This document shows positions 33,576 to 55,789 of a stretch of DNA of 64,000 nt, one piece after another. The stretch covers positions 32,001-96,000 of the IMG/VR virus record IMGVR_UViG_3300029922_000029, one strand, 5' to 3'. The position numbers and the translations under genes were made by a program. A model generated the notes under the pieces. It did no database searches, had not been told where the DNA came from, and saw only the letters and a list, made by a program, of their open reading frames with translations. The first letter of the stretch is position 1; every line of letters starts with the position of its first letter. This stretch comes from a virus.

Positions 33576-33962
33576 TTACCGTGCGATACTGTTTCCGCTA
33601 ATGTCTGGGCCTGTTGAGCGAGTCATCGTGTCGGGCCCGACCGGGGTAGGCGCAGAACCCTTGGCTGGAGTCAGAGGGGCCTTGTTGGTCTGCTTGGTCT
33701 TTTGGTAGGCCTTGATCTTCTGGGTTGCGAGGGCTGTGCCGCCGCCCAACAGACCACCACCTACCGCGCCCTTCAGAGCTCCGCCCAGGCCACCGCGATT
33801 GCCTTGCTCGTCTCTCCCCATAGCTCCTGTTGCGCCGCCGGCGACCGCGCCTGCGATCGCGCCACCCCGAACCAGTGGATTCTTGATCACTTTCTTGGCT
33901 GCGCCCAAGATTTGATTTGTATTAAAAGCGGAGGTTTTGAGAAGACCGATGGAGAATGTCAT
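33576..33962 (-). CDS. tagged putative internal virion protein with glycine zipper
   Basis: N-terminus FSIGLLKTS; GGAIAGAVAGGATG and GAVGGGLLGGG. Confidence 0.7.
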   Translation of the reverse strand: MTFSIGLLKTSAFNTNQILGAAKKVIKNPLVRGGAIAGAVAGGATGAMGRDEQGNRGGLGGALKGAVGGGLLGGGTALATQKIKAYQKTKQTNKAPLTPAKGSAPTPVGPDTMTRSTGPDISGNSIAR

Positions 33963-33965
33963 CGA

Positions 33966-35969
33966 TTACACGTTAATCGTGATGTCGAGGTTGTTCAATG
34001 GGATCGGAATTCCCAAAGTGTAGTTCTCCAGCACTGCGTCGATGTTGACCGGATCCTGCGCGATCGAATTCACGACGCCCGAGGTAATGACTCCGCCGAT
34101 CTTCGGAAGGATTGTCTTTTCCTTCAGGTACGTCAAGAGGCCCTGGGCATTGCCTTTGAGTTCGTCGATCGTGCCGGCCACAATGTTGTAATCACCGATG
34201 TACTGCTTGTGGTTGGTGCGGATAAACTTCGCGATAAAGTCGACGTTCTTGGTGACCGAGAACTCCTGGAACTTAATCGCAGACGTATCCGTTGTCAGCT
34301 GCTGGCGGATATAGAGAGGAGTTTGGTTGATGACGTCCTGAACAAAGATCATCATGCCGCCCGAAGCCATCACGTTCAGCTGATCATTGCTGAAGTAATC
34401 ATTCGAGTGCAAGACGCCCGAGTAGGTCGCCACGGCCAGATTGGTGAAGCCCTGCTGAGTAGGAAGACCCGTCGTCAGCGCGCAGACTGAGGCATTCAGG
34501 AAGTAACCCGGGAGTTGCCGGATCGTGGATCCCACAGGGATTGAGACCACGTCAGGCCAGGTCAGAACAAGCCGGCGATCGCCCAGCGCGGAAGCGTAGG
34601 AAGCCATGGTGGCTGCCTGCTGATCCTTGGTCAGGTTCTCGTCGATGAAGTAAGTGACGCCAGTCGCGGCAAAGGTGGGAGCCGTAGCCGCAACCAAGGT
34701 GAGGTGCGTCTGCGAGTCGACCGACGCGATCGCGTAGCGACCAATGACGTTACTTGGGCTGGGTCCAACCACATTCAGGAACTCACCTGGGACAACGCCA
34801 TCCGTGATGAAGGAAGCTTCTGAGTCGGTGAACCAAATATCGGCGCTCCCAGAAGGCCCGGAGAGGCCATCGGATCCGGTCGTCAATGTTTCCTCAGTGA
34901 TCGCTTGGGTCGTGACGAGCTCACGATTGATGATACCGACGCGCTCGAGTTTCTGTTCAGGCACGGAGTAATCGTCCACATGCGTCTTGAGAAGAGTGTG
35001 GATAGCAGTGTTCTCGGTCAGCACACCAATCGCGTACACGTCGACCAAGGCCAGGACCTCGAGCGCCAGGCCGTAAGCAATGCCTTCGTCGCCGGTATTA
35101 GGGCCGTCACCGTTATCGAGGTAAGCCTGTGGGAGAGCGAGGATCTGGTTCTGTGCGACCGAGTTGTTGATCGCGAGGAGCGCCGCGAAGGCCAGCGTGT
35201 TCTCGGGCACCAGTTGATCGGTCCCGAAGTCAGCCTGGAGGCTTGCGAGAGCCGTCGCGCCCGCGTAACCCCTCATCGAGGCCGAGTAATCGAACCGCAG
35301 CGCGCGGTAGCTCAGCAACACGTTCGCACTCAAGATCGGAACCGTTCCGAAGACAGCATGAACGTAGGTGAGGCCGACCGGGAGGCCCACGCCGGCGTAA
35401 GCCACCGTGACACCGCTCGTCGAAGTCGAGAGCAGGATATTGCCGATTGTTGCCTGCAGGTTCCGCTGCATCGTGTAGCTGAGTCCGGTCTCATTGAGAG
35501 CCGCGAACTCTTCATTCAGTTGCAGGCTGTTGTTATTCAGCTTTGCGCGCACGATATACGTACCGTCATTGCCCATGGTGCTGCCCGTAACAATCAAGGA
35601 ATCGCCGGGAAGGATATTGGCAAAGGCATTCGTCGTGGCATCATCAAAGGTCGTAATCGTGGTGGCGTCCGTGGCGCCCGTCCCTGTAGCTGTCAGGATC
35701 TGAACCACGACCTGAGCAAGGGTGATCGTCACCGGATAGCTGGTGAGATCAGTGGGATCCAAGGGCCGGCAATCGATCTTGGTCCCCGCCTGCTGACCAC
35801 TGAACGTAAAGACGGCCGCACTCCCTGTGTAAGACCCCTCGTTCTCGAGGCTGATCACCTGAAAGGCCGGTCCGACCTGCACATTGGGCAGGCTGAACAA
35901 AGCCAATGCAGGAAGAGCATTGACGAAATTTTGAGTGACGGTGACTCCGGGTTGTCTAACGACGGCCAT
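33966..35969 (-). CDS. tail sheath protein
   Basis: 667 aa; N-terminal RQPGVTVTQ; C-terminal IRQQLTTD...EFSVTKNVDF...IPIPLNNLDITI as in contractile sheaths. Confidence 0.85.
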   Translation of the reverse strand: MAVVRQPGVTVTQNFVNALPALALFSLPNVQVGPAFQVISLENEGSYTGSAAVFTFSGQQAGTKIDCRPLDPTDLTSYPVTITLAQVVVQILTATGTGATDATTITTFDDATTNAFANILPGDSLIVTGSTMGNDGTYIVRAKLNNNSLQLNEEFAALNETGLSYTMQRNLQATIGNILLSTSTSGVTVAYAGVGLPVGLTYVHAVFGTVPILSANVLLSYRALRFDYSASMRGYAGATALASLQADFGTDQLVPENTLAFAALLAINNSVAQNQILALPQAYLDNGDGPNTGDEGIAYGLALEVLALVDVYAIGVLTENTAIHTLLKTHVDDYSVPEQKLERVGIINRELVTTQAITEETLTTGSDGLSGPSGSADIWFTDSEASFITDGVVPGEFLNVVGPSPSNVIGRYAIASVDSQTHLTLVAATAPTFAATGVTYFIDENLTKDQQAATMASYASALGDRRLVLTWPDVVSIPVGSTIRQLPGYFLNASVCALTTGLPTQQGFTNLAVATYSGVLHSNDYFSNDQLNVMASGGMMIFVQDVINQTPLYIRQQLTTDTSAIKFQEFSVTKNVDFIAKFIRTNHKQYIGDYNIVAGTIDELKGNAQGLLTYLKEKTILPKIGGVITSGVVNSIAQDPVNIDAVLENYTLGIPIPLNNLDITINV

Positions 35970-35987
35970 ACGTTTCGATCTCCTTGA

Positions 35988-36665
35988 TCATCCCGACTGA
36001 ATGAGCCCACCTGGGTTCACGGTTAATTGTAACAAAAATTTCCTTAACCGAATAGGGTCAACCCACTCGGTCTTCCAGTTCTCAGTCACCTGGACGTTAA
36101 TCAGCACGGGTGTGACTGAAAGTCCAGGCCTCGCGCCCTTCTGAATCAGAGCTCGTTGCCCAACTTGGTTCACATGAATCGTCAGGAATCCGAACCGCTT
36201 GAGTGCGGGACCGAACATCTCCACGGCTCCCGACACGATCGCGGCCAGACCGTCGGCCTCAAGCTCCTCACTCGAGTAGCAGGAAATGCCGACTGATCCG
36301 TTCAGGATCCTGGCCCGGTGGGTACTGAGTCTACCGATCTGGGCACTCCCAATCCCGCCATTGATGCCGGCGAACTGATACCGGATGGGTCCGCGCGCCA
36401 CCACCAACTTTGGCCTCGTGTCCACTGTCTCCAGGTTGTCGGTCGACTGGCCTTCGATGGCTATCTCCGAGCTAACTGGGTCCCCGATCACGTACTTATA
36501 CTGAGGCAGTTGATTATCGAGCTGCTCGGTCTCAGAGAAGCTGGCGATACCCGGGAAAGTAGAAAACAAGGCCTGCAGAAAGCCAAGCATCGCGTTCTCG
36601 ATGAACCGTAAGGAGTTCTGGTACTGTTGATTGGGATTGACCAGATCCTGCGGACCGTTAGCCAT
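35988..36665 (-). CDS. tail terminator/completion protein (putative)
   Basis: Immediately upstream of the sheath; RP.LVVARG...G.V.ISC.S..E.EA..LA pattern. Confidence 0.55.
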   Translation of the reverse strand: MANGPQDLVNPNQQYQNSLRFIENAMLGFLQALFSTFPGIASFSETEQLDNQLPQYKYVIGDPVSSEIAIEGQSTDNLETVDTRPKLVVARGPIRYQFAGINGGIGSAQIGRLSTHRARILNGSVGISCYSSEELEADGLAAIVSGAVEMFGPALKRFGFLTIHVNQVGQRALIQKGARPGLSVTPVLINVQVTENWKTEWVDPIRLRKFLLQLTVNPGGLIQSG

Positions 36666-37286: not shown

Positions 37287-37305
37287 TTGTGGTCGCTCCG
37301 AGGGT

Positions 37306-37530
37306 TCATCTGACTTTCATCCCGGGCCCCGGACTCACGGTATGCGAAATCGGCTTCATGGCCTTCCTGGCGTTCTGAGCGATCGGGTGACTCATCGTCG
37401 CGGTCTCGGGCTGTCCCGTGAGTGACTTCAGCCCCTGAACCGGATTACCCGGCTTGATGTCGGTCGTGATCCGCCTGGGTCTCGACATCGCGTTCATGCT
37501 GTTTTTTAGGCCCGTGGTGAAGGATCCCAT
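37306..37530 (-). CDS. small basic protein with variant N-terminal tag
   Basis: MGSFTTGLKNS. Confidence 0.65.
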   Translation of the reverse strand: MGSFTTGLKNSMNAMSRPRRITTDIKPGNPVQGLKSLTGQPETATMSHPIAQNARKAMKPISHTVSPGPGMKVR

Positions 37531-37531
37531 A

Positions 37532-37726
37532 TCAGCACAGCGCCGTCACTTCGGAAGGATGGTCTGGATTCTTATTGAACAGCCATTTCATACAGCTCTC
37601 CGTTCGGTTCGAGGAGTCTTTGCCGGTTGCAGGGGAATTGTTGCCCTCAGAAATCTTCGAAGGTGCCTTGATCGGGGTGTTGTCGTGGTGCTTGGCGATC
37701 TTCTGGAGGCCGCGGGAAAATTTCAT
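37532..37726 (-). CDS. small tagged putative internal virion protein
   Basis: MKFSRGLQKIA; ATGA coupling. Confidence 0.7.
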   Translation of the reverse strand: MKFSRGLQKIAKHHDNTPIKAPSKISEGNNSPATGKDSSNRTESCMKWLFNKNPDHPSEVTALC

Positions 37727-38502
37727 TTGTTACCCAGAAATTTCTTACGAGAGTAGTTGGTCGAACTATTCATTGGTAATTTCCACTGCTGGTCCATATA
37801 GCGTGTGTGACTTCTCATATGGGGTGATAAGTCCACAATTTTTCCACCAATAAAATTAGCATGCCGCATATCATGCAATCCAGGATACTTGGCCTTTAAC
37901 TTCTCAAGATGCTGTTCGGTTTCTGGCGATAGTTTGGGCTGTGTCTGGAACATTGCCCTTACGCGACTTCTGTGCTTATCTGCGCGCACATATTTTCTGT
38001 GACTAGCCTCATCGAAATCAATACGATCGCCTTCTGCTGGCCAGCGTTTATTCTCTAGGTCTTCAAATGCTTTGTGCTTTTGCTTGTAGAGAGTGTCGAT
38101 TCTACTGTGCATTTCTTTTGCGTGAGGTTTGCTGTATTCATAGTAACTCACCGGCTTTCCAGCAACTCTAGATAGAAGGTGTGCAAAATCACCTTTCCCT
38201 CCAGTTATCTTTTTAGTGTGCTTCCAGAGGTCTACTCTTTCTTTTTCCGCAGAAAGAGAGTCCATAAGGTGCTTGGGGTGAGTTGAGTCTAAGATCGGTA
38301 TTTTTCTAACCGCTAAACCGTGCTGTGGATGAAGAACCAAGTCAGCAATCTGCTCGCCTCCATGCCCCAGTCGTTTCACTTCTTTTGGATTAGAAACCAG
38401 TCCTTTTAGGCGGTCAATAGCTGAAGGGCTAAGATTGCCTTTAGCGATCTCTTTGATGAAGCGTGAGGTGGAGATTTTCTCAATGCCCCGTGAAAAGGTC
38501 AC
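37723..38502 (-). CDS. tagged protein-kinase-like protein
   Basis: Start GTG38502 (GTGA overlap) gives MTFSRGIEKIS. Kinase-like motifs LGHGGE, AVRK, YYEY, HDMRHAN, IVD. Confidence 0.7.
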   Translation of the reverse strand: MTFSRGIEKISTSRFIKEIAKGNLSPSAIDRLKGLVSNPKEVKRLGHGGEQIADLVLHPQHGLAVRKIPILDSTHPKHLMDSLSAEKERVDLWKHTKKITGGKGDFAHLLSRVAGKPVSYYEYSKPHAKEMHSRIDTLYKQKHKAFEDLENKRWPAEGDRIDFDEASHRKYVRADKHRSRVRAMFQTQPKLSPETEQHLEKLKAKYPGLHDMRHANFIGGKIVDLSPHMRSHTRYMDQQWKLPMNSSTNYSRKKFLGNK

Positions 38503-38711
38503 CGGCTCAGTGTCCCTGCATCTTGCGGAGCCGCGGCACCGAAGCCTAAGCCTGACTTCAGATTTGACCAAGCCGAGCTCATGCTCGTACCGCCCGATAG
38601 TGCTCCGGCCTGCATCTGCCTGGCCTTGCGAGGGTCGATCATAGGAGAGCTTGGCGCATCGGCGATCTTACAAATGAGGAGTGCATTTTTCTTCAAACCC
38701 TTACTGAACAT
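38499..38711 (-). CDS. small tagged putative internal virion protein
   Basis: MFSKGLKKNA; TGATG coupling. Confidence 0.7.
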   Translation of the reverse strand: MFSKGLKKNALLICKIADAPSSPMIDPRKARQMQAGALSGGTSMSSAWSNLKSGLGFGAAAPQDAGTLSR

Positions 38712-39649: not shown

Positions 39650-40387
39650 TTAAGTGAGACCTCGGTAATGGAAAATTTGAGAAATCTTTTTTAAATAGGC
39701 GTCTTCTGAAGCTTCCATTTTAGAGGATTGGCAGGTAAAGCAGGCTGGAACAGAATTATCTAAAGTATAGTATGACTCATTATTTAAGCGATCTACAGAG
39801 TTGCACGGCACTATTTCGCCAGTGCAGTTATTCTTTCTGTTAGAGATGTCACCACAGTAATGGCAAGGTTTTGAGGTGAGATGAGTATATTCCTCCTCTG
39901 ATAAGCAGCTTTTAATATTACGTTTATTTGCACCATTCAGATGGTGTAAATATGAGGCGTGTTTTACTGCGCGGCCATTAGGTTTTTTTTGAGAGGTACT
40001 AATCATTTCTCCAGTTTTGCATCCGCAACTTTTTACATCACCCTTAACTGCATTTCTGGATTTTTTCTCCACTTCATTCCCACATATACACTTAAAGAGC
40101 CATATGAATACCCCTGGCTCTTTACTATTGCGGACAAACTTTAAAGCTGTAAGGTACCCATAAGTTCTCCCAGTAATGTCAGCTGGCTTTCCGGTCTTAT
40201 GGCAAGTGCGACGCTGCCCCATTCTCAATTTAGACTCTATGACCTGTATTGCTCCGCCGCAGTCGCAGTCGCAGTTCCATAACCTTTCGTGCCCTGGGAC
40301 TACAGAGACCGCCGTAAGTTGATGAAACTTGTCGCCTGACTTAATCAATGCAGGCCCGTATTGTCGTGGCATCTGGATTACCCCCAT
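39650..40387 (-). mobile_element. HNH homing endonuclease gene
   Basis: WNCDCDCG and WLFKCICG...SCGC repeats; CHYCG...NSVDR.NN...N.VPAC..C; AT-rich. Confidence 0.85.
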
Positions 40388-42083: not shown

Positions 42084-43004
42084 TTAGAAGCTACCACCAC
42101 CCGGTATGGTCTGGGGAACCGCGAGCCGCAGCTTAGCCACGGAACGCAAATTGGCGATCCCCATACCAACGTATTCCCACGACTTCCAGAAGACCTTGTC
42201 GGCTTCTTTCTTGATCCAGAACTTGACGTCATTCAGGATGAAGAAGTTGCCCAAGAACTGTGGATCCGTGAAGGCGAAGATGTCACCGGGAGGCAAAAGA
42301 TCAGTCTTATTGGTGACTAACAAACGCCTCTTCATTATCTTGTCGGACGTCCACCCGTTGACGGTCATGTCAGACGCAAGGGGAGAGCCGACATCGGTTG
42401 CCTGCTGAGTCGTCCAGTCCGAGAAGTCCACGTTGGTCATGAGCAAGAGAGCCGACTGAAGAAGATCGCCGTCGATCATCTTGAACAGGCTGTTGAGCTG
42501 CGCGCGATTGACGATCGTGCCGGGAGAGTTGATGAACTTGCCCGAGTTGAACACGGCACCGTTGGCGGCAGCGAGACCAGTCGTGTCTTCGACACGCATG
42601 ATGTCTTTGATGCCGTTTTCTTCGATCACTTTCGTGATCTGGTACTCGTACGCCATCAACTCAGCTTCTTGCTTGCTGAAGAGATCGGTTTCGACCTTGA
42701 AGAACGGAACCGCGTAGCGAGTGCCTTGCAGGTAACGTTCGCGGCCGGCAGAACGGAAATTGACTGCCGCAGCCGTCGAGGGATGCTCGAAGTCCACGAT
42801 CTTCACCATCGTGTCGTGCTTGGTGGAGCGAGTCAGATCCGTCCGGACGACGGTTTCGGTGGGGAGCACTTTGCGGAAGAAAGAGTTCTCACGCAAGTAG
42901 CTCCGGATAAAGGCCTGGCCCACCATCGCGGTCTTCTGCTGACCATCTTGGGTGTCCATGCGCTCGACGAACAGGTTGTTAAAACTTACGGCTTCTTCGT
43001 TCAC
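42084..43004 (-). CDS. major capsid protein (HK97 fold)
   Basis: 306 aa; FIRSYLRENSFFRKVLP and WEYVGMGIAN...V; strong RBS, highly biased codons, followed by a terminator. Confidence 0.85.
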   Translation of the reverse strand: MNEEAVSFNNLFVERMDTQDGQQKTAMVGQAFIRSYLRENSFFRKVLPTETVVRTDLTRSTKHDTMVKIVDFEHPSTAAAVNFRSAGRERYLQGTRYAVPFFKVETDLFSKQEAELMAYEYQITKVIEENGIKDIMRVEDTTGLAAANGAVFNSGKFINSPGTIVNRAQLNSLFKMIDGDLLQSALLLMTNVDFSDWTTQQATDVGSPLASDMTVNGWTSDKIMKRRLLVTNKTDLLPPGDIFAFTDPQFLGNFFILNDVKFWIKKEADKVFWKSWEYVGMGIANLRSVAKLRLAVPQTIPGGGSF

Positions 43005-43834: not shown

Positions 43835-44218
43835 TTAACGAGTGTCGACCTCACCATACAGTACCCAGCGCTCCATCTGGTTCAGCTTGCGGCCAGAAGA
43901 GTTGGAATCAGAATCATCCAGAGTGCCTGAATTGATGCCGACCGAACTTCCTCCGCCTCCCGCTGAATATCCGCGTTGGAGCGCTTTTTCTACTACCTGG
44001 AGGTCATCCTCTGTCATCAGAGACGCCACCTTGTTGAGAAACTCTTCATGGGTGCGAAAGGGCTCGGAAAAACCAAGCTCAATTTCGCGGAAAGCAACCT
44101 TCATCGCACGCTTCTCGAGGTCGTTATGAGCTGCGACCTTTTCGAGTTCCAGTCTGCGCGTATGCTCTTGTTTAAGAAGCTGGCCTGCTTTCTTGACCAG
44201 CTCGGGATCGTAACCCAT
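43835..44218 (-). CDS. head scaffolding-type protein
   Basis: Helical, several KxA motifs. Confidence 0.55.
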   Translation of the reverse strand: MGYDPELVKKAGQLLKQEHTRRLELEKVAAHNDLEKRAMKVAFREIELGFSEPFRTHEEFLNKVASLMTEDDLQVVEKALQRGYSAGGGGSSVGINSGTLDDSDSNSSGRKLNQMERWVLYGEVDTR

Positions 44219-44719
44219 TTACTCTCCGATCGTACGAGATGCGGGTTGGCTGGGAGAAGCCATGCTGCGCTCGCCGCTCGGAATGGGTTTGCCATTCTTT
44301 CCGGCGTTGACGTCATCGCCCTTAGCAGAAGCCATGGCCGCACCGACTGCCACAAAATCAACGAGGCGTTTTTTTAAACGACCCGCAGCGACTTTCTCCA
44401 GGGCCTCATCGACATGGGCATTCATGTGGCCCTGTTCGTAAGCCGCTTCCTGGAACCTAAACATCCGATCGAGTTCATCGAGCTGCGTATCGGCATGGAT
44501 CTGATTCATCACGACCGCTATTTTCTCGAATTCGTCGAGGCCGGTAAGGGAATCGTTTCCGGCGCACTTCTCGATCTGGGAGACGACAGCGTTGACTTCG
44601 GAAGAAGAGGAAGGGGCCCCAGAGACAGCCGCAGGAACAACTGGAGAGGCGGTTTTAATCACTTTCTCCAAGTCATTTAGGCGGTCCGCGTCTGCGAGTA
44701 GGTCTTTGAGTGGTCTCAT
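44219..44719 (-). CDS. head-module protein with KxA motifs
   Basis: KTA, KCA, KIA, KVA. Confidence 0.6.
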   Translation of the reverse strand: MRPLKDLLADADRLNDLEKVIKTASPVVPAAVSGAPSSSSEVNAVVSQIEKCAGNDSLTGLDEFEKIAVVMNQIHADTQLDELDRMFRFQEAAYEQGHMNAHVDEALEKVAAGRLKKRLVDFVAVGAAMASAKGDDVNAGKNGKPIPSGERSMASPSQPASRTIGE

Positions 44720-44758
44720 AGATTCCTCAAGAGTGGTGTGTTCTGAGGCCCCGATTCC

Positions 44759-45652
44759 TTAATCTTCCTTGTGACCCATCAAGCGGTGAGCGAGAGCAGC
44801 ACCGCCGGCACCCGCTGCGGCGCCAGTGCCCGCACCGTAGTAGGCTTTATGCTTGCCGACATGGCCGCGAGCCTTGTCGTAAGCGCCACCCAAGTGCTTC
44901 TTGAGTTTAGCCATGTGGCCCATCGCTGCGCCGGCTTTAGTCCCGCGTGCCGCGATCTTCTCGATGCCGTCACCGATCAGGTTCTCGACGGATTCCTGCA
45001 TCCGGACTTCGTCCGCGAGCTCGGCAACCGTGCACTCAGAGGCTTTCTTGTCGTGGCCGCTCTTGTGACGGAGAGCCATGTGAGCTCCGAGAGCTCCGAC
45101 ACCGGCACCTGCGATCAAGGCCGCTTTGCCCTTGTGCTTCTTGCCGTACTTCATAGCTTCATGGCCATGACCCTTGGCGGCTTCGTAAGCCTTACCGAGG
45201 CGAGCCTTGGTCTTGTCAAGGAAGCCCTTGGCCTTCTTGATTTTCTTGGCGTCGGCAGTCTTAACTGCGTCTTCAGCCAGCTTTTCGATCTGGTTGATGT
45301 AGCCTTCCAGCATCGCGGCACCGCAGACCTGAGCGATCTTCTGGAGTTCGACGGGGTCCGAGTTTTCGACGACACCCGAAGCCGCCTGAGCTTCGTCCAT
45401 GGCCTTCAGAATTTCTTCTTCGGCACCATCGAATTCAGCCGAAGCTTCTTTCGAAAGGGGTTCTTCGTCATCGGCTTCCGCGAATTCGCGGTCCGCACAA
45501 TAAGCGCCGTACGCGTAGATGCTTTCGACCAGATCGTTGCCAGCAAGGCTGGCTTCAGCCTGCTTGACGAGCTCGGGGTCGAACTCCTTCGCCAGAAGCG
45601 CCTGGAGTTGTTCTTCGTTCATACCCTGCAAAGCCTGTTCAATCTCGTTCAT
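44759..45652 (-). CDS. head core/internal protein; acidic N-half, two basic glycine-zipper repeats
   Basis: At least 7 KxA motifs, including DGIEKIA. Confidence 0.65.
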   Translation of the reverse strand: MNEIEQALQGMNEEQLQALLAKEFDPELVKQAEASLAGNDLVESIYAYGAYCADREFAEADDEEPLSKEASAEFDGAEEEILKAMDEAQAASGVVENSDPVELQKIAQVCGAAMLEGYINQIEKLAEDAVKTADAKKIKKAKGFLDKTKARLGKAYEAAKGHGHEAMKYGKKHKGKAALIAGAGVGALGAHMALRHKSGHDKKASECTVAELADEVRMQESVENLIGDGIEKIAARGTKAGAAMGHMAKLKKHLGGAYDKARGHVGKHKAYYGAGTGAAAGAGGAALAHRLMGHKED

Positions 45653-45716
45653 TTTTGAGTCTCCTGAGGTTTTTGTTTCCGGTCGTTGTGATCCGAAACG
45701 AATGGGTTAAGGCCGA

Positions 45717-46445
45717 TTAGGTCTGGTGATAAGCTCCGACATCGCCAGCCTGCGCCTTGATCTTGCGCTTCAGCATTGCCTGAGCGGTGACTTCGGGAAT
45801 GTCCATGCGCTTGGCCGTGCTGCCGTTGGTTTCGACCTTGCCGCCACCGGTCGCCTTGTGGTTGACCGTGATGGCTGGATCTTGGCCGTTACCGACGATC
45901 GCGGCGAGTTGGCCGCTGTTGGAGAGACCGGCCATGGGCTTCGAACCTTCTTCAGCGCCGCCAGCGGAGTCGCCTGCGATCTTGTCGAGGTAGCAGGTCT
46001 GGCCTGCGTTGAAGTAGTGAGCCACGCACTCGCCGAAGAGCTGAGCGGGGGTGGCGTCTTCGTCGTTGCCTTCGACAACACCGCCGACCACTTCGGTCAG
46101 GCTCGCGACTTTGGTCTGCCCACCGACCGCAGCGGTCAGGGAACCCGCAGCAGCGGGATCAGCAGCCGCGGCGCCAGCCGTCTTATCGAGACCTTCGGTT
46201 CCAAAAACTTCCTCGTACATCGAAGTGAAATCACTCATTGCGGATCCTCTTTCTTGGGTGGCGGCCGATGCAGTTTTCGTCTGCTCGGTGGCCTGGGTTG
46301 CGGGGGTTTGGGCGAGTCCCAGGCTCTCGATCACCTGGTCGACTTCACTTTTGCCACCAGCCGCGGGAGCAGCTGATGCAGTCTTGGTTTGCGATTTGTC
46401 ATCCATTCCGAAATCAGACAGCATTTGTTCGAGAGTACGTGACAT
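45717..46445 (-). CDS. scaffold-like protein
   Basis: Ala-rich; KTA three times, KVA, KIA; downstream of the protease. Confidence 0.6.
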   Translation of the reverse strand: MSRTLEQMLSDFGMDDKSQTKTASAAPAAGGKSEVDQVIESLGLAQTPATQATEQTKTASAATQERGSAMSDFTSMYEEVFGTEGLDKTAGAAAADPAAAGSLTAAVGGQTKVASLTEVVGGVVEGNDEDATPAQLFGECVAHYFNAGQTCYLDKIAGDSAGGAEEGSKPMAGLSNSGQLAAIVGNGQDPAITVNHKATGGGKVETNGSTAKRMDIPEVTAQAMLKRKIKAQAGDVGAYHQT

Positions 46446-46458
46446 GTGGGGTCTCCTT

Positions 46459-48342
46459 CTAAAGAGCCAATTGAGTCATTGCCTGCAGGAGCAAGAGCTC
46501 CTGCGCAGGTAGCCGGTTCGTCATAGGAAGTTGATTTGGATTGAGTTCGCCCGTGCCCATGACGGAAGCAGCCTTCTCGAGAAGGCTCGAGACTTCAGCT
46601 ACATCGCTGGGTGTTTGTGTGAGGAGGCTTCTGGCGAGCAGAGAGACAGGAAGCCGGTCACCGAGCGTCTCAGGGGTCTGCCCGGGTTCAGAAAGATAAA
46701 TCAGTCCAGACACCCCTTCGAGGGGATGATGGCCTAACTTAGGGAACCAGGAGAGAGCTTCCAAATCGACGACGGAACCGGTTTTGATAACCGCAACGGG
46801 ACGTGCTTGTAAATCTACAAAACGTCTCCGCCAGTCTTGAGTATACAAGTCTTGGCTGCCCCCCGCAAGGTCGTATTGCCCGCTGACTAAAGGCTTCGCA
46901 TTGGAAGACGCCAGGGTCTTGGCCGCAGCGGCGATGGGGAGGCCGGCGAGAAGCAAGGGAATGGGGTGATTCAAGAAGAGATCCCGGAGTTTCTCGGGGA
47001 CAAACATGGCAGCCAGAGCTACGAGTAAGCCCTGCTTGATGCCTTGCTCAAAGGTACCGGGCTGCTTCTTGTGCCTAGACTCTTCAGCAGCCCTCTTCAC
47101 CATCTTGGGATCCAGCTGCCGAAGCCTGATCATCAGGACGGGAGGGCTAAAAGAACGCTCGGGGATGAAAGGTGCGAGTGCGTCACAGCACTCCGGGCTG
47201 ACGCGGTGAAGACCTTCAGCCTTCTTGCCCGTGAAGATCTCGCCGATCGTGCGCGCCTCGTCGGGGGTCGGCGCGATCGCAAGAGTCACGAGGGATGAAA
47301 GGAGCTCGGGGAGGCTGGAGCTCTTCGCAACGGATTCGAAGGTCTGGCGCGGGATAGGCTTCGCCGAGCGGTCGAGGGCCAGCTTGATGGCCGCACTCAG
47401 AGCCGTGACCTTTTTCGCCGCCTGGGCCGGGACTTCGGACAGTCCGGGGCGGGGAACCACAGAAACACCCGGGATCTGCTTCTTGATGAAGGCTTTCTTG
47501 GCGACAGCGGCCTGTTTGATGCCGCGTTTCATACCGTAGGCTTGCTCGAGTTCTGATGCCACCTTATCCAAGTAGACTGGATCGCCGACCGCTCCAGGCG
47601 GCAGCTCAGCAAGGTGAGCCGAGCCCAAGCGGGAAGGCGCGGCAGCACTCGCAATCTTCTCCCACATGTAAGCCGTCTTGTCGGCTGGGATCAGGACGCG
47701 GGAGATATCGAAGAATTTCGGATGGGGGTTCCGCGCAAAGACCGCCTTGCCAGTATCTGGATCGATCTGCCGCAAAAGGTACCTGAGGTGATCGCAATAC
47801 TCAGCGCGTGTCTTGGCTTTATTCAGGCAGATATTGCAGACGTCATAAGGCAGTTTTGCGCCCATCGAGGTCGTGATGGGTTCACCACGGTCGACCATCG
47901 CGGCGCCCTCGGGGTCGCGAGCTGGATCGATCCCGATGACGAGCTCCACGCGCTTGGCGTTCTCATTCCAAACAGCGAGGATCACCTTCCCTTTGGCTAG
48001 GGCTGGGTTTTGATTGACGTGATGGGTAAAGTAATTCGCGTTAGTCTTGAAGGTGTCGACCCCGTAATCGGGCCCGCGGTGGGAGAGTGGCTCTTCACCG
48101 AACCAATCCGCATTGATATTGTCACCCCAATATTCACCCGCTCCGAGTGCCGTGATGAGCGCCTGAACCAATCCCTCCATGGGCTTGGCCTGCTCGATAT
48201 ACTTCTGGACTTGTGGGTGGTAGGCAAACTTGCGGTTCGCGCTGGCGGCCTGCTTGAGAAGGTAGCGACGATCCTCTGTAAGCAGGAACACGTCCCGCTC
48301 TTTACGGCTCAGGTTTTGAGGGTAGAGGAGGAGCTTATCCAT
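46459..48342 (-). CDS. prohead maturation protease with long C-terminal extension
   Basis: N.NAD.F, F..H.N......G.V, SMG....D.C.IC...C.H, N..P.FFDIS.V..PAD.TA. Confidence 0.8.
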   Translation of the reverse strand: MDKLLLYPQNLSRKERDVFLLTEDRRYLLKQAASANRKFAYHPQVQKYIEQAKPMEGLVQALITALGAGEYWGDNINADWFGEEPLSHRGPDYGVDTFKTNANYFTHHVNQNPALAKGKVILAVWNENAKRVELVIGIDPARDPEGAAMVDRGEPITTSMGAKLPYDVCNICLNKAKTRAEYCDHLRYLLRQIDPDTGKAVFARNPHPKFFDISRVLIPADKTAYMWEKIASAAAPSRLGSAHLAELPPGAVGDPVYLDKVASELEQAYGMKRGIKQAAVAKKAFIKKQIPGVSVVPRPGLSEVPAQAAKKVTALSAAIKLALDRSAKPIPRQTFESVAKSSSLPELLSSLVTLAIAPTPDEARTIGEIFTGKKAEGLHRVSPECCDALAPFIPERSFSPPVLMIRLRQLDPKMVKRAAEESRHKKQPGTFEQGIKQGLLVALAAMFVPEKLRDLFLNHPIPLLLAGLPIAAAAKTLASSNAKPLVSGQYDLAGGSQDLYTQDWRRRFVDLQARPVAVIKTGSVVDLEALSWFPKLGHHPLEGVSGLIYLSEPGQTPETLGDRLPVSLLARSLLTQTPSDVAEVSSLLEKAASVMGTGELNPNQLPMTNRLPAQELLLLQAMTQLAL

Positions 48343-48610
48343 CTAAATCACTTACGTGGATTTTAAAGATCGGAGGTTCTCCGGGTAAAGGATACTCAAA
48401 ACCCTCGAAAAGATACGTCTCTTTAATGAGTTTACCCCTGATGCCTAGCCGGCGTTTGATATCGATAAAAAACCGCACATCTTTAATATGTGTTCGAATA
48501 TTAAAAGATTCTACTAAACCAATTGCTTCTTCTTCGATTTCTATAAAGGGCCTGGAGTAAGGGGATTTAGAAAACCTGCGAACAATCAAGCAATCCGTAT
48601 TTTTCCACAT
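48335..48610 (-). CDS. small AT-rich hypothetical protein (moron)
   Basis: 91 aa; composition differs from the flanks. Confidence 0.55.
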   Translation of the reverse strand: MWKNTDCLIVRRFSKSPYSRPFIEIEEEAIGLVESFNIRTHIKDVRFFIDIKRRLGIRGKLIKETYLFEGFEYPLPGEPPIFKIHVSDLDG

Positions 48611-48613
48611 AGA

Positions 48614-49888
48614 TTAAGTCTTCTTCTCGGGCTCGCCCTGACCGCCCTTGCCCTGACCGCCCTTGCCCTTACCGCCAATACCCATAGGGAAGTGCAGCGT
48701 TTCCATCACGCCCTTCATTCCGCCCATGAACCCTTTATTGCCGCTGACCGAGCGGTCGACGGCCGAGTTGGCTTCCGCCAGTCCCTTGATGGTGTCGGGC
48801 GCGATCCGGCCGAACGCCTGGACTTGCTGCTCGAGGAAAGAACGGAGAACCGGAGGGCGCGCGGCGAGGGCTGGTGCGACCATGCAGATCGTATCGAAGG
48901 CTTCACGCGCGGCCTGAGGATCTTGCTTCAGGGTATCGTTCGTCCGCATCAACTGGCTGAATTGATTCTGTGCCTCATTTTTGAGGTGTGCGTCTTGCGA
49001 GCGATCGTACACAAGCTTCACGAGGCCTAATCCGCCCCCGAGTGCGAGAGCGGGAGCGATGTATGCGAGATGGTCAGCCAAACCCTTTGCGCCCTTCCCA
49101 AGCATATCCTTCATGCCGGAACCGAAACCACCCTTCGCCGCGGCCGTTTTCATCATGTGAACGCGATCGCTCACCATGCGGCCCAGGCAGGCTTCCGAGA
49201 CGTAGAGCGGGAACTCAACCGAGCTCTGCTTAGTCTGGTTCTTCGCTTGTGCCTTGCCTCTGGCATGAGCATAGAGTTCCTCAGGGCTCATGTTTCTGTA
49301 AACACTGGGATCAGAGATCTCGGAAACCAGCGTGGATTTCAAAAGTTTTCCGGCATCGGCGACTTCCTGATCAATAGATTGAAACTTTTTCTCAGTGCGC
49401 CTGAATGTTTCCATCCCGAAGATATTCAGGGATTTCTCGAGAGCACCCAGAATCGCCGCGCGGGCTCCGGCGCTTGCAGTTTGAGGGCGACCCGCCGTTC
49501 CCATCCGAGAGGCTTCGATCACGGAGAGCTTGTGGACATCATCGAGGCTGAAGCCGGTATCAAGCCGTTCGGTCAAGAGCTTGTGCGCCATCTGGGGGTT
49601 CTTCGCAACAGTCGGAGCCACCACGGAGAGCTCGCCAAAGAGAGCGGCGAATTTCTGGGGATCCTGCTTGAATTGCGGGTTCTTTCCAAAAGTGGCATGA
49701 AGACTGTCGGCCAGATCTTTCTTATGGTTCTCGGTAGCGCTGCGTCCGCTCATATAACCGTAGAGGCCCGCGGCACCCGCGATCCCGGTGACCCCGAGAA
49801 GTGGAAAGAGCATAGCCTTCATCTTTTTGGCGGTGGCCGGGGTCAGCATCGACTCGGCTTTTGCGGCTTCTTTTACGACTGTGCTCAT
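48614..49888 (-). CDS. putative internal virion protein with two hydrophobic Gly-rich segments and internal duplication
   Basis: ...F..L..VAP.VA..P occurs twice, each after a Gly-rich hydrophobic helix; KEA and KTA motifs. Confidence 0.65.
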   Translation of the reverse strand: MSTVVKEAAKAESMLTPATAKKMKAMLFPLLGVTGIAGAAGLYGYMSGRSATENHKKDLADSLHATFGKNPQFKQDPQKFAALFGELSVVAPTVAKNPQMAHKLLTERLDTGFSLDDVHKLSVIEASRMGTAGRPQTASAGARAAILGALEKSLNIFGMETFRRTEKKFQSIDQEVADAGKLLKSTLVSEISDPSVYRNMSPEELYAHARGKAQAKNQTKQSSVEFPLYVSEACLGRMVSDRVHMMKTAAAKGGFGSGMKDMLGKGAKGLADHLAYIAPALALGGGLGLVKLVYDRSQDAHLKNEAQNQFSQLMRTNDTLKQDPQAAREAFDTICMVAPALAARPPVLRSFLEQQVQAFGRIAPDTIKGLAEANSAVDRSVSGNKGFMGGMKGVMETLHFPMGIGGKGKGGQGKGGQGEPEKKT

Positions 49889-50070
49889 GTTGGCCCCCGA
49901 GGCGTTTGCATGCTGGTCACACGCTTCATGTTCTGGCTAAACTGGTTGCTGGCGTCGGCGGCCGTCAGAACTGCGTTCAGCTTCCCACCGGCCAGATTGG
50001 TGATGGCTTTGGCTGCAGAGCCGATGATTCCGGCTGTCTTCTTGAGACCGTCACTGAACTTAGAGCCCAC
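49885..50070 (-). CDS. small tagged putative internal virion protein
   Basis: MGSKFSDGLKKTA. Confidence 0.65.
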   Translation of the reverse strand: MGSKFSDGLKKTAGIIGSAAKAITNLAGGKLNAVLTAADASNQFSQNMKRVTSMQTPRGPT

Positions 50071-50944
50071 GGATCTTTTCCTTCAACTGAGGAAGAGTGG
50101 CATCCACAATCCCGCGGTGGGTGCGGAGATGCTCTTCCTCGTCCCATTTCCCGCCTAAGGTATTGATGGTGATGTAGAGTGCGTGGTTGCCATTCACGAT
50201 CTTGGCCGGGATGTCGTAGTTGATTAGGCTTTCTGGTGCCTGCTGCTCGGCGAATTTATAGAGGCCCTGGACCGTCAGGACATGGGCGATCTTTGCGATG
50301 AGGAGCGCGGTCTTGTTCTTGCGCTTCGGATCGCTCACGGCCGAACGTACAAACTCAGCGATCTTCTTGAGGCCCTCGCCGCGGTCGGTGAAAGGCATCT
50401 CAATCAGCATCTGACGGGCTTCTTTGATGAACTTGATCTCGAGAGCTTCGATCTGAGAAGTGATCTCGATCTGCTTGTCGCTCAGGCGTTCGGAGGCCGC
50501 GGCTGTCTTTTCAAGACGGTTCGTGAGTTCGTGCTTAAGTAGTCGCTTGTCAGACGCCAGCTTCTGGTGGCCATTCGTGGGCAGAAAGGCGGTCCAGGTG
50601 TCGGAGGCCTGCTTCTTCATGGCCCTTGAGCCTTCGGGGGGCGCCATGTAGTCTTCTGAGGCCTGCTTGCAGAGGACAGGAGCCACGGCCTGGAGTTCAC
50701 CTACGACTTCGTCTGGGTTGACGGGGACGAAAGAGTAAGAGGCTTTCTTATCCAAATCGTAGAGCCCCTTCCAAACAATACCATTAGCCTCTCCAGTGAG
50801 GACAGGTATTTGCACCGGAGCAAGGCGCTCAGATGAGGCAACCTTCTTTAGCTCTGCCTTGAGGGTACTCTTCCCACCCGAGGTTAGAAAAGCCTCAGCA
50901 GCCCGTTTAGACAGAAGCTTCAGGGTCTCTCTCGTCTTATGCAT
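50060..50944 (-). CDS. head-module protein rich in KxA motifs
   Basis: KRA, KVA, KQA twice, KLA, KTA, KEA, KIA, KFA. Confidence 0.7.
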   Translation of the reverse strand: MHKTRETLKLLSKRAAEAFLTSGGKSTLKAELKKVASSERLAPVQIPVLTGEANGIVWKGLYDLDKKASYSFVPVNPDEVVGELQAVAPVLCKQASEDYMAPPEGSRAMKKQASDTWTAFLPTNGHQKLASDKRLLKHELTNRLEKTAAASERLSDKQIEITSQIEALEIKFIKEARQMLIEMPFTDRGEGLKKIAEFVRSAVSDPKRKNKTALLIAKIAHVLTVQGLYKFAEQQAPESLINYDIPAKIVNGNHALYITINTLGGKWDEEEHLRTHRGIVDATLPQLKEKIRGL

Positions 50945-51283
50945 CTAGGTTCCTTCATGGCGGTGACCGCCGCGTCCCGGAGTCGACTTAAGGTTAAGCT
51001 CCCCAGCCATTCTATAAACTTTGTTTGCTTGATATTTACGGATGATCTTGCCAGCTTCATGCCCAGCGACGCCGCCAGAGGCTGCGCCGAGACCTGCGCC
51101 GATCAGCCCCACTTTGGATTTGTTGCCGTGCTTTCCCCTGAGTAAACCAATAGCTGCGCCAGCCCCTGCGCCCCCTATAGCACCCTTATATTTATCGCCG
51201 GCACCCACATGCTCATAAAACTCGGTCGGAGTCATGGTAACGACTGTGACTGCGATCTTCTTTAGGCCCGTGGAAAACAGCAT
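50945..51283 (-). CDS. tagged putative internal virion protein with glycine zipper
   Basis: MLFSTGLKKIA; GAIGGAGAGAAIG and GLIGAGLGAASGGVAG. Confidence 0.7.
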   Translation of the reverse strand: MLFSTGLKKIAVTVVTMTPTEFYEHVGAGDKYKGAIGGAGAGAAIGLLRGKHGNKSKVGLIGAGLGAASGGVAGHEAGKIIRKYQANKVYRMAGELNLKSTPGRGGHRHEGT

Positions 51284-52776: not shown

Positions 52777-52780
52777 ACAA

Positions 52781-52808
52781 GCAAATTCCTCGGAGATTCT
52801 GGCATAAG
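52781..52808 (+). promoter_or_regulatory. bipartite phage promoter-like motif copy 6 (GCAA-N16-GGCATAAG)
   Basis: Intergenic; GAGGAG RBS and ATG52830. Confidence 0.75.
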
Positions 52809-52829
52809 TTCTCTGAGGAGAATTTTTGT

Positions 52830-54542: not shown

Positions 54543-54759
54543 GGGTTGTTGGAGCACACTCTCAAGTTTATGAGTATGATGGTGCTTTTAAGTGCCTGGC
54601 ATGCCAGCAAAGTTGGGGCGCTCTTCCAGGCAATCCAAAGATACCTGAAATCTGTAAACTTTCAGAGAGATCTAAGAGAATACTAGCTATTCAAGTGGAG
54701 ATCAGCAACCTAGAGAGCGAACTTTCATATCTATACCAAATACAACAAAGGACCACGTA

Positions 54760-55191
54760 ATGACCGACACCACACCCCGTTTTCTACCGCCTCAGGATGC
54801 CTCTGAGGTCGTCATCGCCACCCTGGACTCCGGCCAAAAGTTCATCGGCTGGGTCAGCGAGTCCAGAGAGGATATTGAGATCCAGGCACTCAACGATCCG
54901 CTCGAGATCGTCGTGCGGGCTTTTCCGAGGTCCCCCAATCCTCAAGAACCCAGAGCAGTGGGCCTTGAGGTCTTCTCACCTGACTTCGAGATTCCGGGAT
55001 CCGCCGCCCTCACCACCGTCGTCAAGTTTGAGTACTACCCACAAGGCACTAAGATCTTCGGACTCTACTTTCAGTGCCGGGATCAGATCGGGAGTGAGGC
55101 CATCAAGATCGCGGTGAAGAAGGCTTACAAGGAAGTCCCACGTCAATTGAATCAAGCACCAGCCGTAACCGCCAGCGGACAAGTTAGATAA
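54760..55191 (+). CDS. hypothetical protein (possible Sm-like fold)
   Basis: VVIATLDSGQKFIG...L.DP. Confidence 0.55.
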   Translation: MTDTTPRFLPPQDASEVVIATLDSGQKFIGWVSESREDIEIQALNDPLEIVVRAFPRSPNPQEPRAVGLEVFSPDFEIPGSAALTTVVKFEYYPQGTKIFGLYFQCRDQIGSEAIKIAVKKAYKEVPRQLNQAPAVTASGQVR

Positions 55192-55477
55192 GGAGAAACT
55201 ATGAGAATCGATAAGGATGTCACTTGTGCTAAGCCAGTCAACACGTCGCCAGAAGAGCTCCGCATGCTCGCAGATAAGCTCGAAGCCGCTCATAAGAATT
55301 GTCTGCCCGGCCAGAAGATCAGCTTTCTAGCCGAAGGGGATCTCATGTTCGTCTACAGTCCTTTAGTCAAGTCCTCCGCTGCCACGGGACTTCTGAAGTC
55401 CTATAAGGCATTTGAAGGTTCAAGCGAAGAACGTCAAGAGGAGCCAGTTCTTCAGAACTAGCTCCATCGCGCAAGAG

Positions 55478-55518
55478 AAAACACCGGTCTGCCTGGGGAG
55501 GCGGGGCCGGTGTTTTTT
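55478..55518 (+). terminator. intrinsic terminator
   Basis: AAAACACCGG...CCGGTGTTTTTT. Confidence 0.75.
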
Positions 55519-55570
55519 AGCTTAGATCTCCCAGTGTTTTTTAGCTCCGACCCATGGTACACTTGACCCC

Positions 55571-55789
55571 ATGAGCTTCTCCCTAGGACTCCATAAGGTC
55601 TCGGCAGCCAAGATGGGTCTCCGCGGCGTCATTGCCGCCACCGAAAAAGCACCGGCCAAGGCAATGTCGGGGATCGCGCAGAACAGCCTCAAGGCCATGC
55701 CCAAGCGCCCCAACATCATGGACATCAAAGACCTGCCTGCGGCCGCACCCAAGAAGAAGGGCTTTCTGGGTGGGATGTTTGGGTTCTAA
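55571..55789 (+). CDS. stand-alone tagged small basic protein
   Basis: MSFSLGLHKVS; preceded by the extended -10 TGGTACACT-N7-ATG. Confidence 0.7.
   Translation: MSFSLGLHKVSAAKMGLRGVIAATEKAPAKAMSGIAQNSLKAMPKRPNIMDIKDLPAAAPKKKGFLGGMFGF

What the first reader, a model, noticed from the sequence alone, without database searches (positions are those of the whole stretch)
33576..55789. Candidate capsid-targeting system: eight unrelated proteins share an N-terminal F-S-x-G-L-x-K-x-A tag
Seen directly: 33962 MTFSIGLLKTS; 37530 MGSFTTGLKNS (variant); 37726 MKFSRGLQKIA; 38502 MTFSRGIEKIS; 38711 MFSKGLKKNA; 50070 MGSKFSDGLKKTA; 51283 MLFSTGLKKIA; 55571 MSFSLGLHKVS. After the tag the proteins share nothing obvious: basic peptides, glycine zippers, a kinase-like fold. 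Seven are scattered through the morphogenesis block. One sits outside it on the other strand with its own promoter, so the tag is portable. The tag ends in the K-x-A/S motif that recurs in the head proteins. Established analogy: T4 internal proteins carry a ~10 aa N-terminal capsid-targeting sequence removed by the prohead protease. Inference: a distinct plug-in packaging signal that loads variable cargo into the head for injection. It would also be usable for engineered protein delivery.
Basis: partly seen in the sequence, partly recalled or inferred. Interest (0 to 1): 0.9.

Follow-up and report, generated by a model that had tools for sequence, protein, structure and literature searches.

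The report
Phage head-loading tag on unrelated proteins
An uncultured soil phage puts the same 10-residue N-terminal tag on a dozen unrelated, mostly small basic proteins, and the tag ends in the motif its T4-type head protease most likely cuts. It is therefore probably a capsid-loading address like phage T4's, in a different phage lineage with a different cutting rule.

Summary
All eight N-termini are where stated. Seven fit F-[ST]-x-G-[LIVM]-x-K-x-[AS]; one is an off-register variant. The 108.7-kb genome holds 9 strict copies plus 3 variants, against 0.075 expected by chance. Every copy follows a start codon, and synonymous codons vary, so the peptide is what is selected.

The tag runs through the lineage. 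I found 131 distinct tagged ORFs in about 80 unrelated families across 44 related contigs, and 11-21 hits of one narrow pattern (F-x-x-G-F-x-K-x-A) in each complete relative. Each clade has its own dialect (FS-GL, F--GF, FW-GFEKRA), and a wider F-x-D-E-L-E-K-I-A dialect also exists.

The second half of the tag (hydrophobic-x-K-x-A) is about 7-fold enriched at conserved positions in head-module proteins. It occurs near the capsid protein's N-terminus and on both sides of a protease domain with the T4 gp21 fold (Z 9.8).

Tagged proteins are mostly small and basic, but they include SNF2 helicases, a DNA ligase and a kinase-like protein. In the cultured relative Salmonella phage Arash, an untagged ortholog of the tagged helicase is abundant in virions.

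Best reading (about 0.6): a T4-CTS-like capsid-targeting propeptide removed by the prohead protease. Cutting, packaging and injection are all inferred.

This is a new variant of a known kind. The scan has already found T4-type (x-E) tag expansions on other DNA.

The parts
33576..33962 (-). Tagged ORF, 128 aa, MTFSIGLLKTS-; Gly-rich, basic (pI 10.9)
37306..37530 (-). ORF, 74 aa, with a degenerate off-register tag MGSFTTGLKNS-; its relative in L005 has a regular tag
37532..37726 (-). Tagged ORF, 64 aa, MKFSRGLQKIA-
37723..38502 (-). Tagged ORF, 259 aa, GTG start, (M)TFSRGIEKIS-. The body has a kinase-like conserved set (G46, G48, K67, D211, N216, D224). Orthologs in L007, L023 and L025 carry their own genome's tag dialect.
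38499..38711 (-). Tagged ORF, 70 aa, MFSKGLKKNA-
49885..50070 (-). Tagged ORF, 61 aa, GTG start, (M)GSKFSDGLKKTA-; pI 11.1
50945..51283 (-). Tagged ORF, 112 aa, MLFSTGLKKIA-; first gene of the head operon; glycine-zipper-like (Pfam hits below cut-off); 8 orthologs, all tagged
55571..55789 (+). Tagged ORF, 72 aa, MSFSLGLHKVS-; on the other strand, after the replication genes and behind a terminator-like hairpin
46459..48342 (-). 627-aa protease fusion. Residues about 52-220 (nt about 47683-48189) have the T4 gp21 / assemblin fold. H107, H108 and S159-M-G are invariant. Y-L-x-K-x-A (res 27-32) and W-E-K-I-A (res 226-231) flank the domain.
42084..43004 (-). Major capsid protein (phrog_2522) with a conserved G-x-x-K-T-A at residues 21-26 (nt 42927-42944)
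43835..46445 (-). Four acidic, Ala-rich head-module ORFs (127, 166, 297 and 242 aa) carrying 15 hydrophobic-x-K-x-[AS] motifs, several at positions conserved in orthologs; likely scaffold/core proteins
48614..49888 (-). 424-aa head-module ORF with 4 motif copies, a hydrophobic segment and a Gly/Lys-rich tail
50060..50944 (-). 294-aa head-module ORF with 10 motif copies (K34 and K174 conserved in 17/17 orthologs). Its counterpart by position, size and motif count in phage Arash, gp220, is a virion protein; homology between the two was not tested.

Best explanation
The tag is a two-part N-terminal propeptide that loads proteins into the prohead, and the phage's own prohead protease then cuts it off. 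This parallels the capsid targeting sequence (CTS) of the T4 internal proteins.

The C-terminal half (G-hydrophobic-x-K-x-A/S) is a cleavage site for the gp21-fold protease encoded at 46459-48342. The same short motif marks the capsid protein's N-terminus, both borders of the protease domain, and many conserved positions in scaffold-like head proteins. The N-terminal half (aromatic-x-x-G) is specific to the tags. I infer it is the docking determinant that holds the cargo on the assembling core or shell.

The cargo is mostly small basic proteins, which could travel with the DNA. Relatives also tag enzymes: SNF2 helicases, a DNA ligase and a kinase-like protein. Cargo would be released inside the head on maturation and enter the host with the genome.

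Shown: the tag, its position, its spread and dialects, the motif sharing, and the protease fold. Inferred: cutting, packaging and injection.
For: - **Position and chance.** The motif has 9 strict copies against 0.075 expected, all at starts. Over the genome plus 44 related loci, the relaxed motif has 159 hits, 138 of them within 5 codons of a start. The reversed control gave 2 hits and one scrambled control gave 3; a second scrambled pattern gave 40, nearly all from one conserved site in a single protein family.
- **Portability.** There are 131 distinct tagged ORFs in about 80 BLASTP clusters. One narrow pattern gives 11-21 hits per complete relative and 0 with the reversed pattern.
- **Dialects shared by unrelated proteins of one genome.** In the window genome, position 2 is S in 9/9 and position 5 is L in 8/9. 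In clade A, position 5 is F in 37/41. In clade B, position 2 is W in 54/65 and K-R-A dominates. Orthologs switch dialect with their genome. This fits one co-evolving receptor.
- **Link to head maturation.** Hydrophobic-x-K-x-[AS] runs at about 15 per 1000 aa in head ORFs at 43835-51283, against about 2 elsewhere. Positions are conserved in orthologs. The capsid protein has a conserved G-x-x-K-T-A in every clade examined, and the capsid protein of cultured phage Arash has G-L-V-K-E-A at the same place. The motif flanks the protease domain. In Arash, 6 of 7 forward G-L-x-K-x-A hits lie in its head module.
- **Protease.** PHROG head maturation protease. The model matches T4 gp21 at Z 9.8, rmsd 3.0 Å over 129 residues, and herpesvirus assemblins at Z 5-6.
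- **Two-part build.** G at -3 and aromatic at -6 are near-universal in tags but rare at internal sites (G in 13%). In T4, targeting likewise sits in the N-terminal part of the CTS and processing at its end (PMC9026906).
- **Cargo character.** 80% of tagged proteins have pI above 9, against 37% in the background; median length is 108 aa.
- **Experimental link.** Arash virion mass spectrometry finds 116 proteins, including helicase gp217 with 1148 spectra (PMC10585845). gp217 is 37% identical (E 2e-97) to the tagged SNF2 helicase L013:18388-19818.
Against: - No cleavage product, virion proteome or injection assay exists for any phage that carries the tag.
- Arash gp217 is in virions without the 22-residue tagged extension. 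The tag is therefore not required for that family's packaging in every lineage, and the Arash authors themselves allow for carry-over of abundant proteins.
- The residue after K-x-A is far more varied in tags than at internal sites (S/A/E/G), so the exact scissile bond is uncertain.
- The capsid-protein site does not follow the tag dialect in clade B. In three loci of the ELEKIA group it has no Lys at all.
- Two tagged genes of this genome lie outside structural modules.
Confidence: 0.6

Rival explanations
1. The tag is only a processing site. The prohead protease or another phage protease removes a short leader, for example to activate or release the protein, but the leader does not cause capsid loading. 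The proteins reach the head by other contacts, or some never do.
For: The shared part of the tag is exactly the part found at internal sites. The tagged helicase's ortholog in Arash is a virion protein without the tag. In the kinase-like family, 116 of 137 database homologs carry just a short hydrophobic-x-K-x-[AST] leader of variable length.
Against: A bare cleavage site would not need an invariant Gly and a near-invariant aromatic three residues further up, kept on about 80 unrelated families and drifting together within each genome. By established knowledge of T4 and HK97, a prohead protease acts inside the prohead, so its substrates have to be there anyway.
Confidence: 0.17
2. The tag is an uncleaved docking peptide that binds the inner face of the HK97-type shell or the portal, as encapsulin cargo-loading peptides do. 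The repeats of the motif in scaffold-like proteins are shell-binding sites rather than cut sites.
For: The tag is short, contains Gly and hydrophobic residues, and has one conserved basic residue, which recalls encapsulin targeting peptides (from memory, not tested). The motif is repeated many times in scaffold-like proteins. The variable residue after K-x-A is easier to explain for binding than for cutting.
Against: The motif brackets the protease domain on both sides and sits near the capsid protein's N-terminus, which is the classic layout of maturation cleavage. Encapsulin peptides are usually C-terminal and need no protease.
Confidence: 0.1
3. The tag has nothing to do with the capsid. 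It is an address or modification site for another machine: a membrane or secretion route, a replication compartment, a host protease or a modifying enzyme. An earlier case in this scan, where a shared tag turned out to go with a radical-SAM enzyme, is the precedent.
For: Some tagged proteins are DNA enzymes (SNF2 helicase, DNA ligase) that would also be useful at a replication site. Many small tagged proteins have glycine-zipper or hydrophobic stretches. Two tagged genes sit among non-structural genes, and tagged islands in relatives flank an RNA-polymerase-like gene.
Against: Most tagged genes lie in head or structural operons on the capsid gene's strand. The tag's second half is concentrated in head proteins of this phage and of Arash. 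The tag has no signal-peptide-like hydrophobic core.
Confidence: 0.08

Closest known systems
Phage T4 capsid targeting sequence (CTS) on internal proteins IPI, IPII, IPIII and Alt, removed by prohead protease gp21 (Mullaney & Black 1996; reviewed in PMC9026906 and PMC3012670)
   Same: Both are short (10-19 aa) N-terminal propeptides shared by otherwise unrelated, mostly small basic proteins. Targeting determinants lie in the N-terminal part and the protease site at the end. The protease has the gp21 fold, and core or scaffold proteins carry many copies of the same site. The cargo set varies between relatives.
   Different: The cutting rule is hydrophobic-x-K-x-A/S, not L/I-x-E. The tag sequence is unrelated to T4's. 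The phage is not T4-like in its capsid protein (phrog_2522) or in its protease, which is fused to a roughly 400-aa tail. There are far more carriers (12 in this fragment; 11-21 hits of one narrow pattern per complete relative), and they include large enzymes. Clear clade-specific dialects exist. Nothing has been shown experimentally.
Head-protein propeptides of phiKZ-like giant phages (phiKZ gp175, SPN3US gp245; cut at S/A/G-x-E; PMC5694885, PMC10052503)
   Same: Many head and ejection proteins, including enzymes such as a virion RNA polymerase, are processed by a gp21-type protease at a short motif, with redundant sites.
   Different: Their propeptides are mostly long (over 100 aa) and carry no common N-terminal tag. 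The motif ends in Glu.
Salmonella phage Arash (OQ632216; PMC10585845) and Vibrio phages D69/D148/D181: the nearest cultured relatives
   Same: Arash has a homologous protease (41.6% identity), capsid protein (27% identity, E 1e-33) and helicase. G-L-x-K-x-A occurs in the capsid protein, the protease and neighbouring head proteins. The Arash virion holds 116 proteins, including RNA polymerase subunits and the helicase.
   Different: Neither has an F-x-x-G tag family. In Arash the G-L-x-K-x-A motif stays in the head module. D69 shows only a mild excess of short K-x-A leaders (25 ORFs, against 14 and 6 in control windows).
Encapsulin cargo-loading peptides (from memory)
   Same: A short linear peptide directs diverse cargo into an HK97-fold shell.
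   Different: They are usually C-terminal, are not cleaved, and involve no protease or DNA. The resemblance in sequence style was not tested.
Prp-cleaved N-terminal leaders on capsid and scaffold proteins of Staphylococcus phage 80alpha (from memory)
   Same: A shared N-terminal leader on phage head proteins is removed by a dedicated protease.
   Different: There the protease belongs to the host, the leader copies ribosomal protein L27, and it is not used on a cargo set.

Membership tests
T4-type capsid targeting sequence system | Short N-terminal peptide shared by otherwise unrelated proteins of one phage | tested here: met
   12 carriers in this genome; 131 distinct ORFs in about 80 clusters across relatives
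T4-type capsid targeting sequence system | The tag ends in the motif used at maturation sites of head proteins | tested here: met
   Hydrophobic-x-K-x-A/S is about 7-fold enriched in head ORFs at conserved positions, near the capsid protein's N-terminus, and on both flanks of the protease domain. That these are cut sites is inferred.
T4-type capsid targeting sequence system | A phage-encoded gp21-type prohead protease is present | tested here: met
   PHROG hit; the model matches 5JBL at Z 9.8, rmsd 3.0 Å, 129 aa
T4-type capsid targeting sequence system | Cleavage after Glu in L/I-x-E, and sequence likeness to the T4 CTS | tested here: not met
   The tag is F-x-x-G-[LF]-x-K-x-A, with no Glu rule
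T4-type capsid targeting sequence system | Tagged proteins are in the virion, lose the tag, and enter the host | not testable with these tools
   Indirect only: an untagged ortholog of the tagged helicase is abundant in Arash virions
T4-type capsid targeting sequence system | The tag alone carries a foreign protein into the head | not testable with these tools
   Needs a fusion experiment
gp21 / assemblin-fold prohead serine protease (for ORF 46459-48342) | Fold of the catalytic domain | tested here: met
   Core pLDDT is 80-94. T4 gp21 is the top hit, with herpesvirus proteases next.
gp21 / assemblin-fold prohead serine protease (for ORF 46459-48342) | Catalytic His and Ser in place | tested here: inconclusive
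   H107, H108 and S159 are invariant in 19 orthologs, and an intein sits right after S-M-G in L022. I did not map them onto the gp21 triad.
Protein-kinase-like fold (for ORF 37723-38502) | Gly-loop, beta-3 Lys, catalytic D-x4-N and metal-binding Asp | tested here: met
   G46, G48, K67, D211, N216 and D224 are invariant in 40 homologs
Protein-kinase-like fold (for ORF 37723-38502) | Match to a kinase profile or structure | tested here: inconclusive
   No Pfam or PDB sequence hit. The AlphaFold model was unusable (pLDDT 35). The Atlas gave only a lead to PF18762 Kinase-PolyVal at rank 25.
Encapsulin-type cargo-loading peptide | C-terminal, uncleaved peptide that binds the shell interior | tested here: not met
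   The tag is strictly N-terminal. Binding to the shell was not tested.

The most novel reading that the evidence does not exclude
A large, mostly uncultured phage lineage (50-200 kb genomes, sharing this capsid protein and protease) uses an evolvable two-part address code: aromatic-x-x-[G/E]-[L/F]-x-K-x-A, read by a gp21-fold protease with a Lys-x-Ala rule. The code loads a dozen to several dozen swappable proteins per virion, including ready-made DNA enzymes. Mutually distinct dialects (FS-GL, F--GF, FW-GFEKRA, F-DELEKIA) co-evolve with their receptor, so they could serve as orthogonal packaging tags.
Probability: 0.45. Interest if true: 0.72.

Novelty: new variant of a known kind. Interest (0 to 1): 0.62.

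Why it matters
If true, protein loading by a short cleavable address tag is not a T4 peculiarity. It would be a general solution that gp21-type proteases reach with different cutting rules.

It would predict a Lys-x-Ala specificity, which I did not find described for any phage prohead protease (full-text searches for the tag strings found nothing, and the T4 and phiKZ literature I read reports only x-Glu rules).

It would mark out, from sequence alone, the probable injected proteome of a whole uncultured lineage, including candidates for early takeover and anti-defence such as an SNF2 helicase, a DNA ligase and a kinase-like protein.

It would also offer a natural series of related but distinct tags for studying how cargo, receptor and protease co-evolve, and for loading proteins into capsids in the laboratory, as has been done with T4.

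Tried and rejected
- **Complex prediction.** Protease domain (A1, residues 38-236) with the first 40 residues of the tagged 112-aa protein (A2): no verdict, score 0.22 under the 0.32 mark. This is no evidence either way.
- **Kinase-like protein model.** AlphaFold from 4 sequences gave pLDDT 35, unusable. Profile searches of it against PDB and Pfam found nothing relevant.
- **RNA-level signal.** Rejected, because the codons vary synonymously.
- **Simple paralogy.** Rejected, because the protein bodies fall into about 80 clusters and include unrelated enzyme folds.
- **Near-identical cultured phages.** None found by megablast. The tagged ligase and the kinase-like protein have no tblastn match in the 50,697 phage records.
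- **Literature.** No paper in the library holds tag strings such as GFEKRA or DELEKIA.
- **Arash supplement.** It holds only the annotation table, not peptide lists, so cleavage could not be read from it.
- **One misleading control.** A scrambled motif gave 40 hits. Nearly all come from a single conserved site in the 160-aa ORF family, repeated across loci.
- **Promoter.** The sigma-70 scan found no promoter before the + strand copy.

Full report
**1. The observation**

Two start with GTG (38502 and 50070).

In a six-frame translation of the window, F-[ST]-x-G-[LIVM]-x-K-x-[AS] occurs seven times, always one to four codons after a start codon. The window is bases 32001-96000 of a 108,699-bp phage contig. 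The whole contig has nine strict copies, against a mean of 0.075 and a maximum of 1 in 200 shuffles.

There are three variants as well:
- the off-register MGSFTTGLKNS at 37530;
- MSLSHGLIKTA;
- MTFSTALQKTA. The last two lie in a row of three tagged genes behind a 711-aa ORF outside the window.

Ser is encoded by TCC, TCA and AGT, Leu by five different codons and Gly by three. Selection therefore acts on the peptide, not on an RNA element. With the tag removed, the proteins of this genome do not match each other.

**2. The tag runs through a lineage and has dialects**

The capsid protein (42084-43004, phrog_2522) retrieved 44 related IMG/VR loci at 41-76% identity. The strict motif is almost absent there, but orthologs of the tagged proteins begin with related tags.

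The relaxed motif F-x-x-G-[FLWIMV]-x-K-x-[AS] gives 159 hits over the genome plus loci, 138 of them within five codons of a start. The reversed pattern gives 2 and one scrambled pattern gives 3. A second scrambled pattern gave 40, nearly all from one conserved site in a single protein family.

These are 131 distinct ORFs in about 80 BLASTP clusters. Five complete relatives of 152-182 kb carry 11-21 hits of one narrow DNA pattern and none of its reverse. The hits are often in islands of adjacent small genes.

| Group | Position 2 | Position 5 | Other |
|---|---|---|---|
| Window genome | S in 9/9 | L in 8/9 | |
| Clade A | mixed | F in 37/41 | |
| Clade B | W in 54/65 | F in 64/65 | consensus F-W-x-G-F-E-K-R-A |

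(Dialect counts.)

Within one orthologous family the tag follows the resident genome's dialect. The clade B string occurs in only 28 stretches of 2.9 million viral contigs.

A wider dialect, F-x-D-E-L-E-K-I-A, occurs in 118 stretches. Of 153 hits to the slightly relaxed protein form of this motif in those stretches, 143 lie within 12 codons of a start. Wherever those loci include head genes, they have the same capsid-protein and protease families.

**3. Link to head maturation**

Hydrophobic-x-K-x-[AS] is the tag's second half. It runs at about 15 per 1000 residues in the head ORFs between 43835 and 51283 and in the 711-aa ORF, against about 2 per 1000 in the rest of the genome.

Many of these positions are conserved in orthologs. 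In the 294-aa ORF, K34 and K174 carry the motif in 17 of 17 sequences.

The capsid protein has G-x-x-K-T-A at residues 21-26 in every clade. The capsid protein of the cultured Salmonella phage Arash has G-L-V-K-E-A at the same place.

The 627-aa ORF at 46459-48342 matches a head-maturation-protease PHROG. A model of its first 330 residues, built from 19 orthologs, has a confident core. Its best structural match is the T4 gp21 protease (Z 9.8, rmsd 3.0 Å over 129 residues), followed by herpesvirus assemblins at Z 5-6.

The motif sits on both sides of this domain, at residues 27-32 and 226-231. That is the layout expected for self-release. H107, H108 and S159-M-G are invariant, and one relative has an intein inserted right after S-M-G.

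In Arash, 6 of 7 forward G-L-x-K-x-A hits fall in the head module.

**4. The tag has two parts**

Gly at -3 and an aromatic at -6 from the hydrophobic residue are nearly universal in tags. At internal sites Gly is present in only 13%.

So the second half is shared with presumed cut sites, while the first half is tag-specific. In T4, targeting determinants likewise lie in the N-terminal part of the CTS and processing determinants at its end (PMC9026906). I infer that F-x-x-G is the docking part.

**5. The cargo**

Tagged proteins have a median length of 108 aa. Eighty percent have pI above 9, against 37% of other ORFs. Several have glycine-zipper-like stretches, with Pfam hits below cut-off.

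Relatives also tag enzymes:
- SNF2 helicases of 477-865 aa;
- an ATP-dependent DNA ligase.

The 259-aa tagged ORF of the window has 150 database homologs with invariant G-x-G, K, D-x4-N and D. This is a kinase-like signature, but there is no Pfam or PDB sequence match and no usable model. One homolog is fused to an InPase domain.

**6. A cultured anchor**

The protease has relatives in Salmonella phage Arash (41.6% identity), Vibrio phages D69/D148/D181, Bacillus phage G and cluster C mycobacteriophages.

Arash virions contain 116 proteins by mass spectrometry, including RNA polymerase subunits and helicase gp217 with 1148 spectra (PMC10585845). gp217 is a full-length ortholog (37% identity, E 2e-97) of the tagged helicase L013:18388-19818, but it lacks the 22-residue tagged extension.

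This shows the family can be a virion component. It also shows the tag is not the only route in.

Arash has no tag family. D69 has only a mild excess of short K-x-A leaders.

**7. Reading**

The best explanation (about 0.6) is a T4-CTS-like capsid-loading propeptide removed by the prohead protease.

Rivals:
- a processing site without a targeting role (0.17);
- an uncleaved, encapsulin-like docking peptide (0.10);
- an address for something other than the capsid (0.08).

Cutting, packaging and injection are all inferred.

The scan has already reported T4-type (x-Glu) tag expansions on other DNA. What is new here is the lineage, the Lys-x-Ala rule, the two-part tag with clade dialects, and the enzyme cargo.

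Noticed in passing
L022:3536-6610 (ortholog of window 46459-48342): The prohead protease of one relative carries an intein inserted directly after the invariant S-M-G. LAGLIDADG_3 scores 28 bits, above its cut-off; Intein_splicing has E 6e-7, below its cut-off. This marks the Ser as a critical site.
   Followed up: partly
L071:6444-7632 and L071:14319-17442; L072:6201-7194 and L072:16569-17476: In 175-182 kb relatives, islands of 2-6 adjacent tagged genes flank a roughly 2030-aa ORF matching phage RNA polymerase beta-subunit PHROGs. One tagged gene there is an ATP-dependent DNA ligase.
   Followed up: partly
genome 103652-105787 (-), beyond the window's end (window scale 71652-73787): A 711-aa ORF with no family hit begins M-A-I-L-K-H-A-A-G and carries 11 hydrophobic-x-K-x-[AS] motifs, six of them between residues 510 and 620. 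Three tagged small genes follow it directly. It may be the portal or a large internal protein.
   Followed up: no
window 55481-55520: A terminator-like hairpin (CACCGG...CCGGTG followed by a T run) sits between the replication operon and the + strand tagged gene. No sigma-70-like promoter was found after it.
   Followed up: partly
window 39650-40387 (-): An HNH endonuclease (phrog_374, E 1e-23) sits inside the structural operon. A second HNH/endonuclease VII gene lies next to the large terminase at window 64771-65985.
   Followed up: no
whole contig: The contig is 108.7 kb, while close relatives rated complete are 150-182 kb and carry a giant RNA-polymerase-like gene not found here. This genome is probably a fragment, so 12 tagged genes is a lower bound.
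   Followed up: partly
P0027 (database homolog of window 37723-38502): The kinase-like domain occurs fused to a PF18823 InPase domain in a 652-aa protein, and inside proteins of 1563 and 2594 aa. This hints at use in large multi-domain phage proteins.
   Followed up: no
L078:656-2804 and L110:1118-2283: Arrays of three to five adjacent small genes each begin with M-N-F-Q-x-A-F-F-D-E-L-E-K-I-A or M-N-H-F-E-F-G-F-F-D-E-L-x-K-I-A, a longer 15-residue form of the tag in other members of the lineage.
   Followed up: partly
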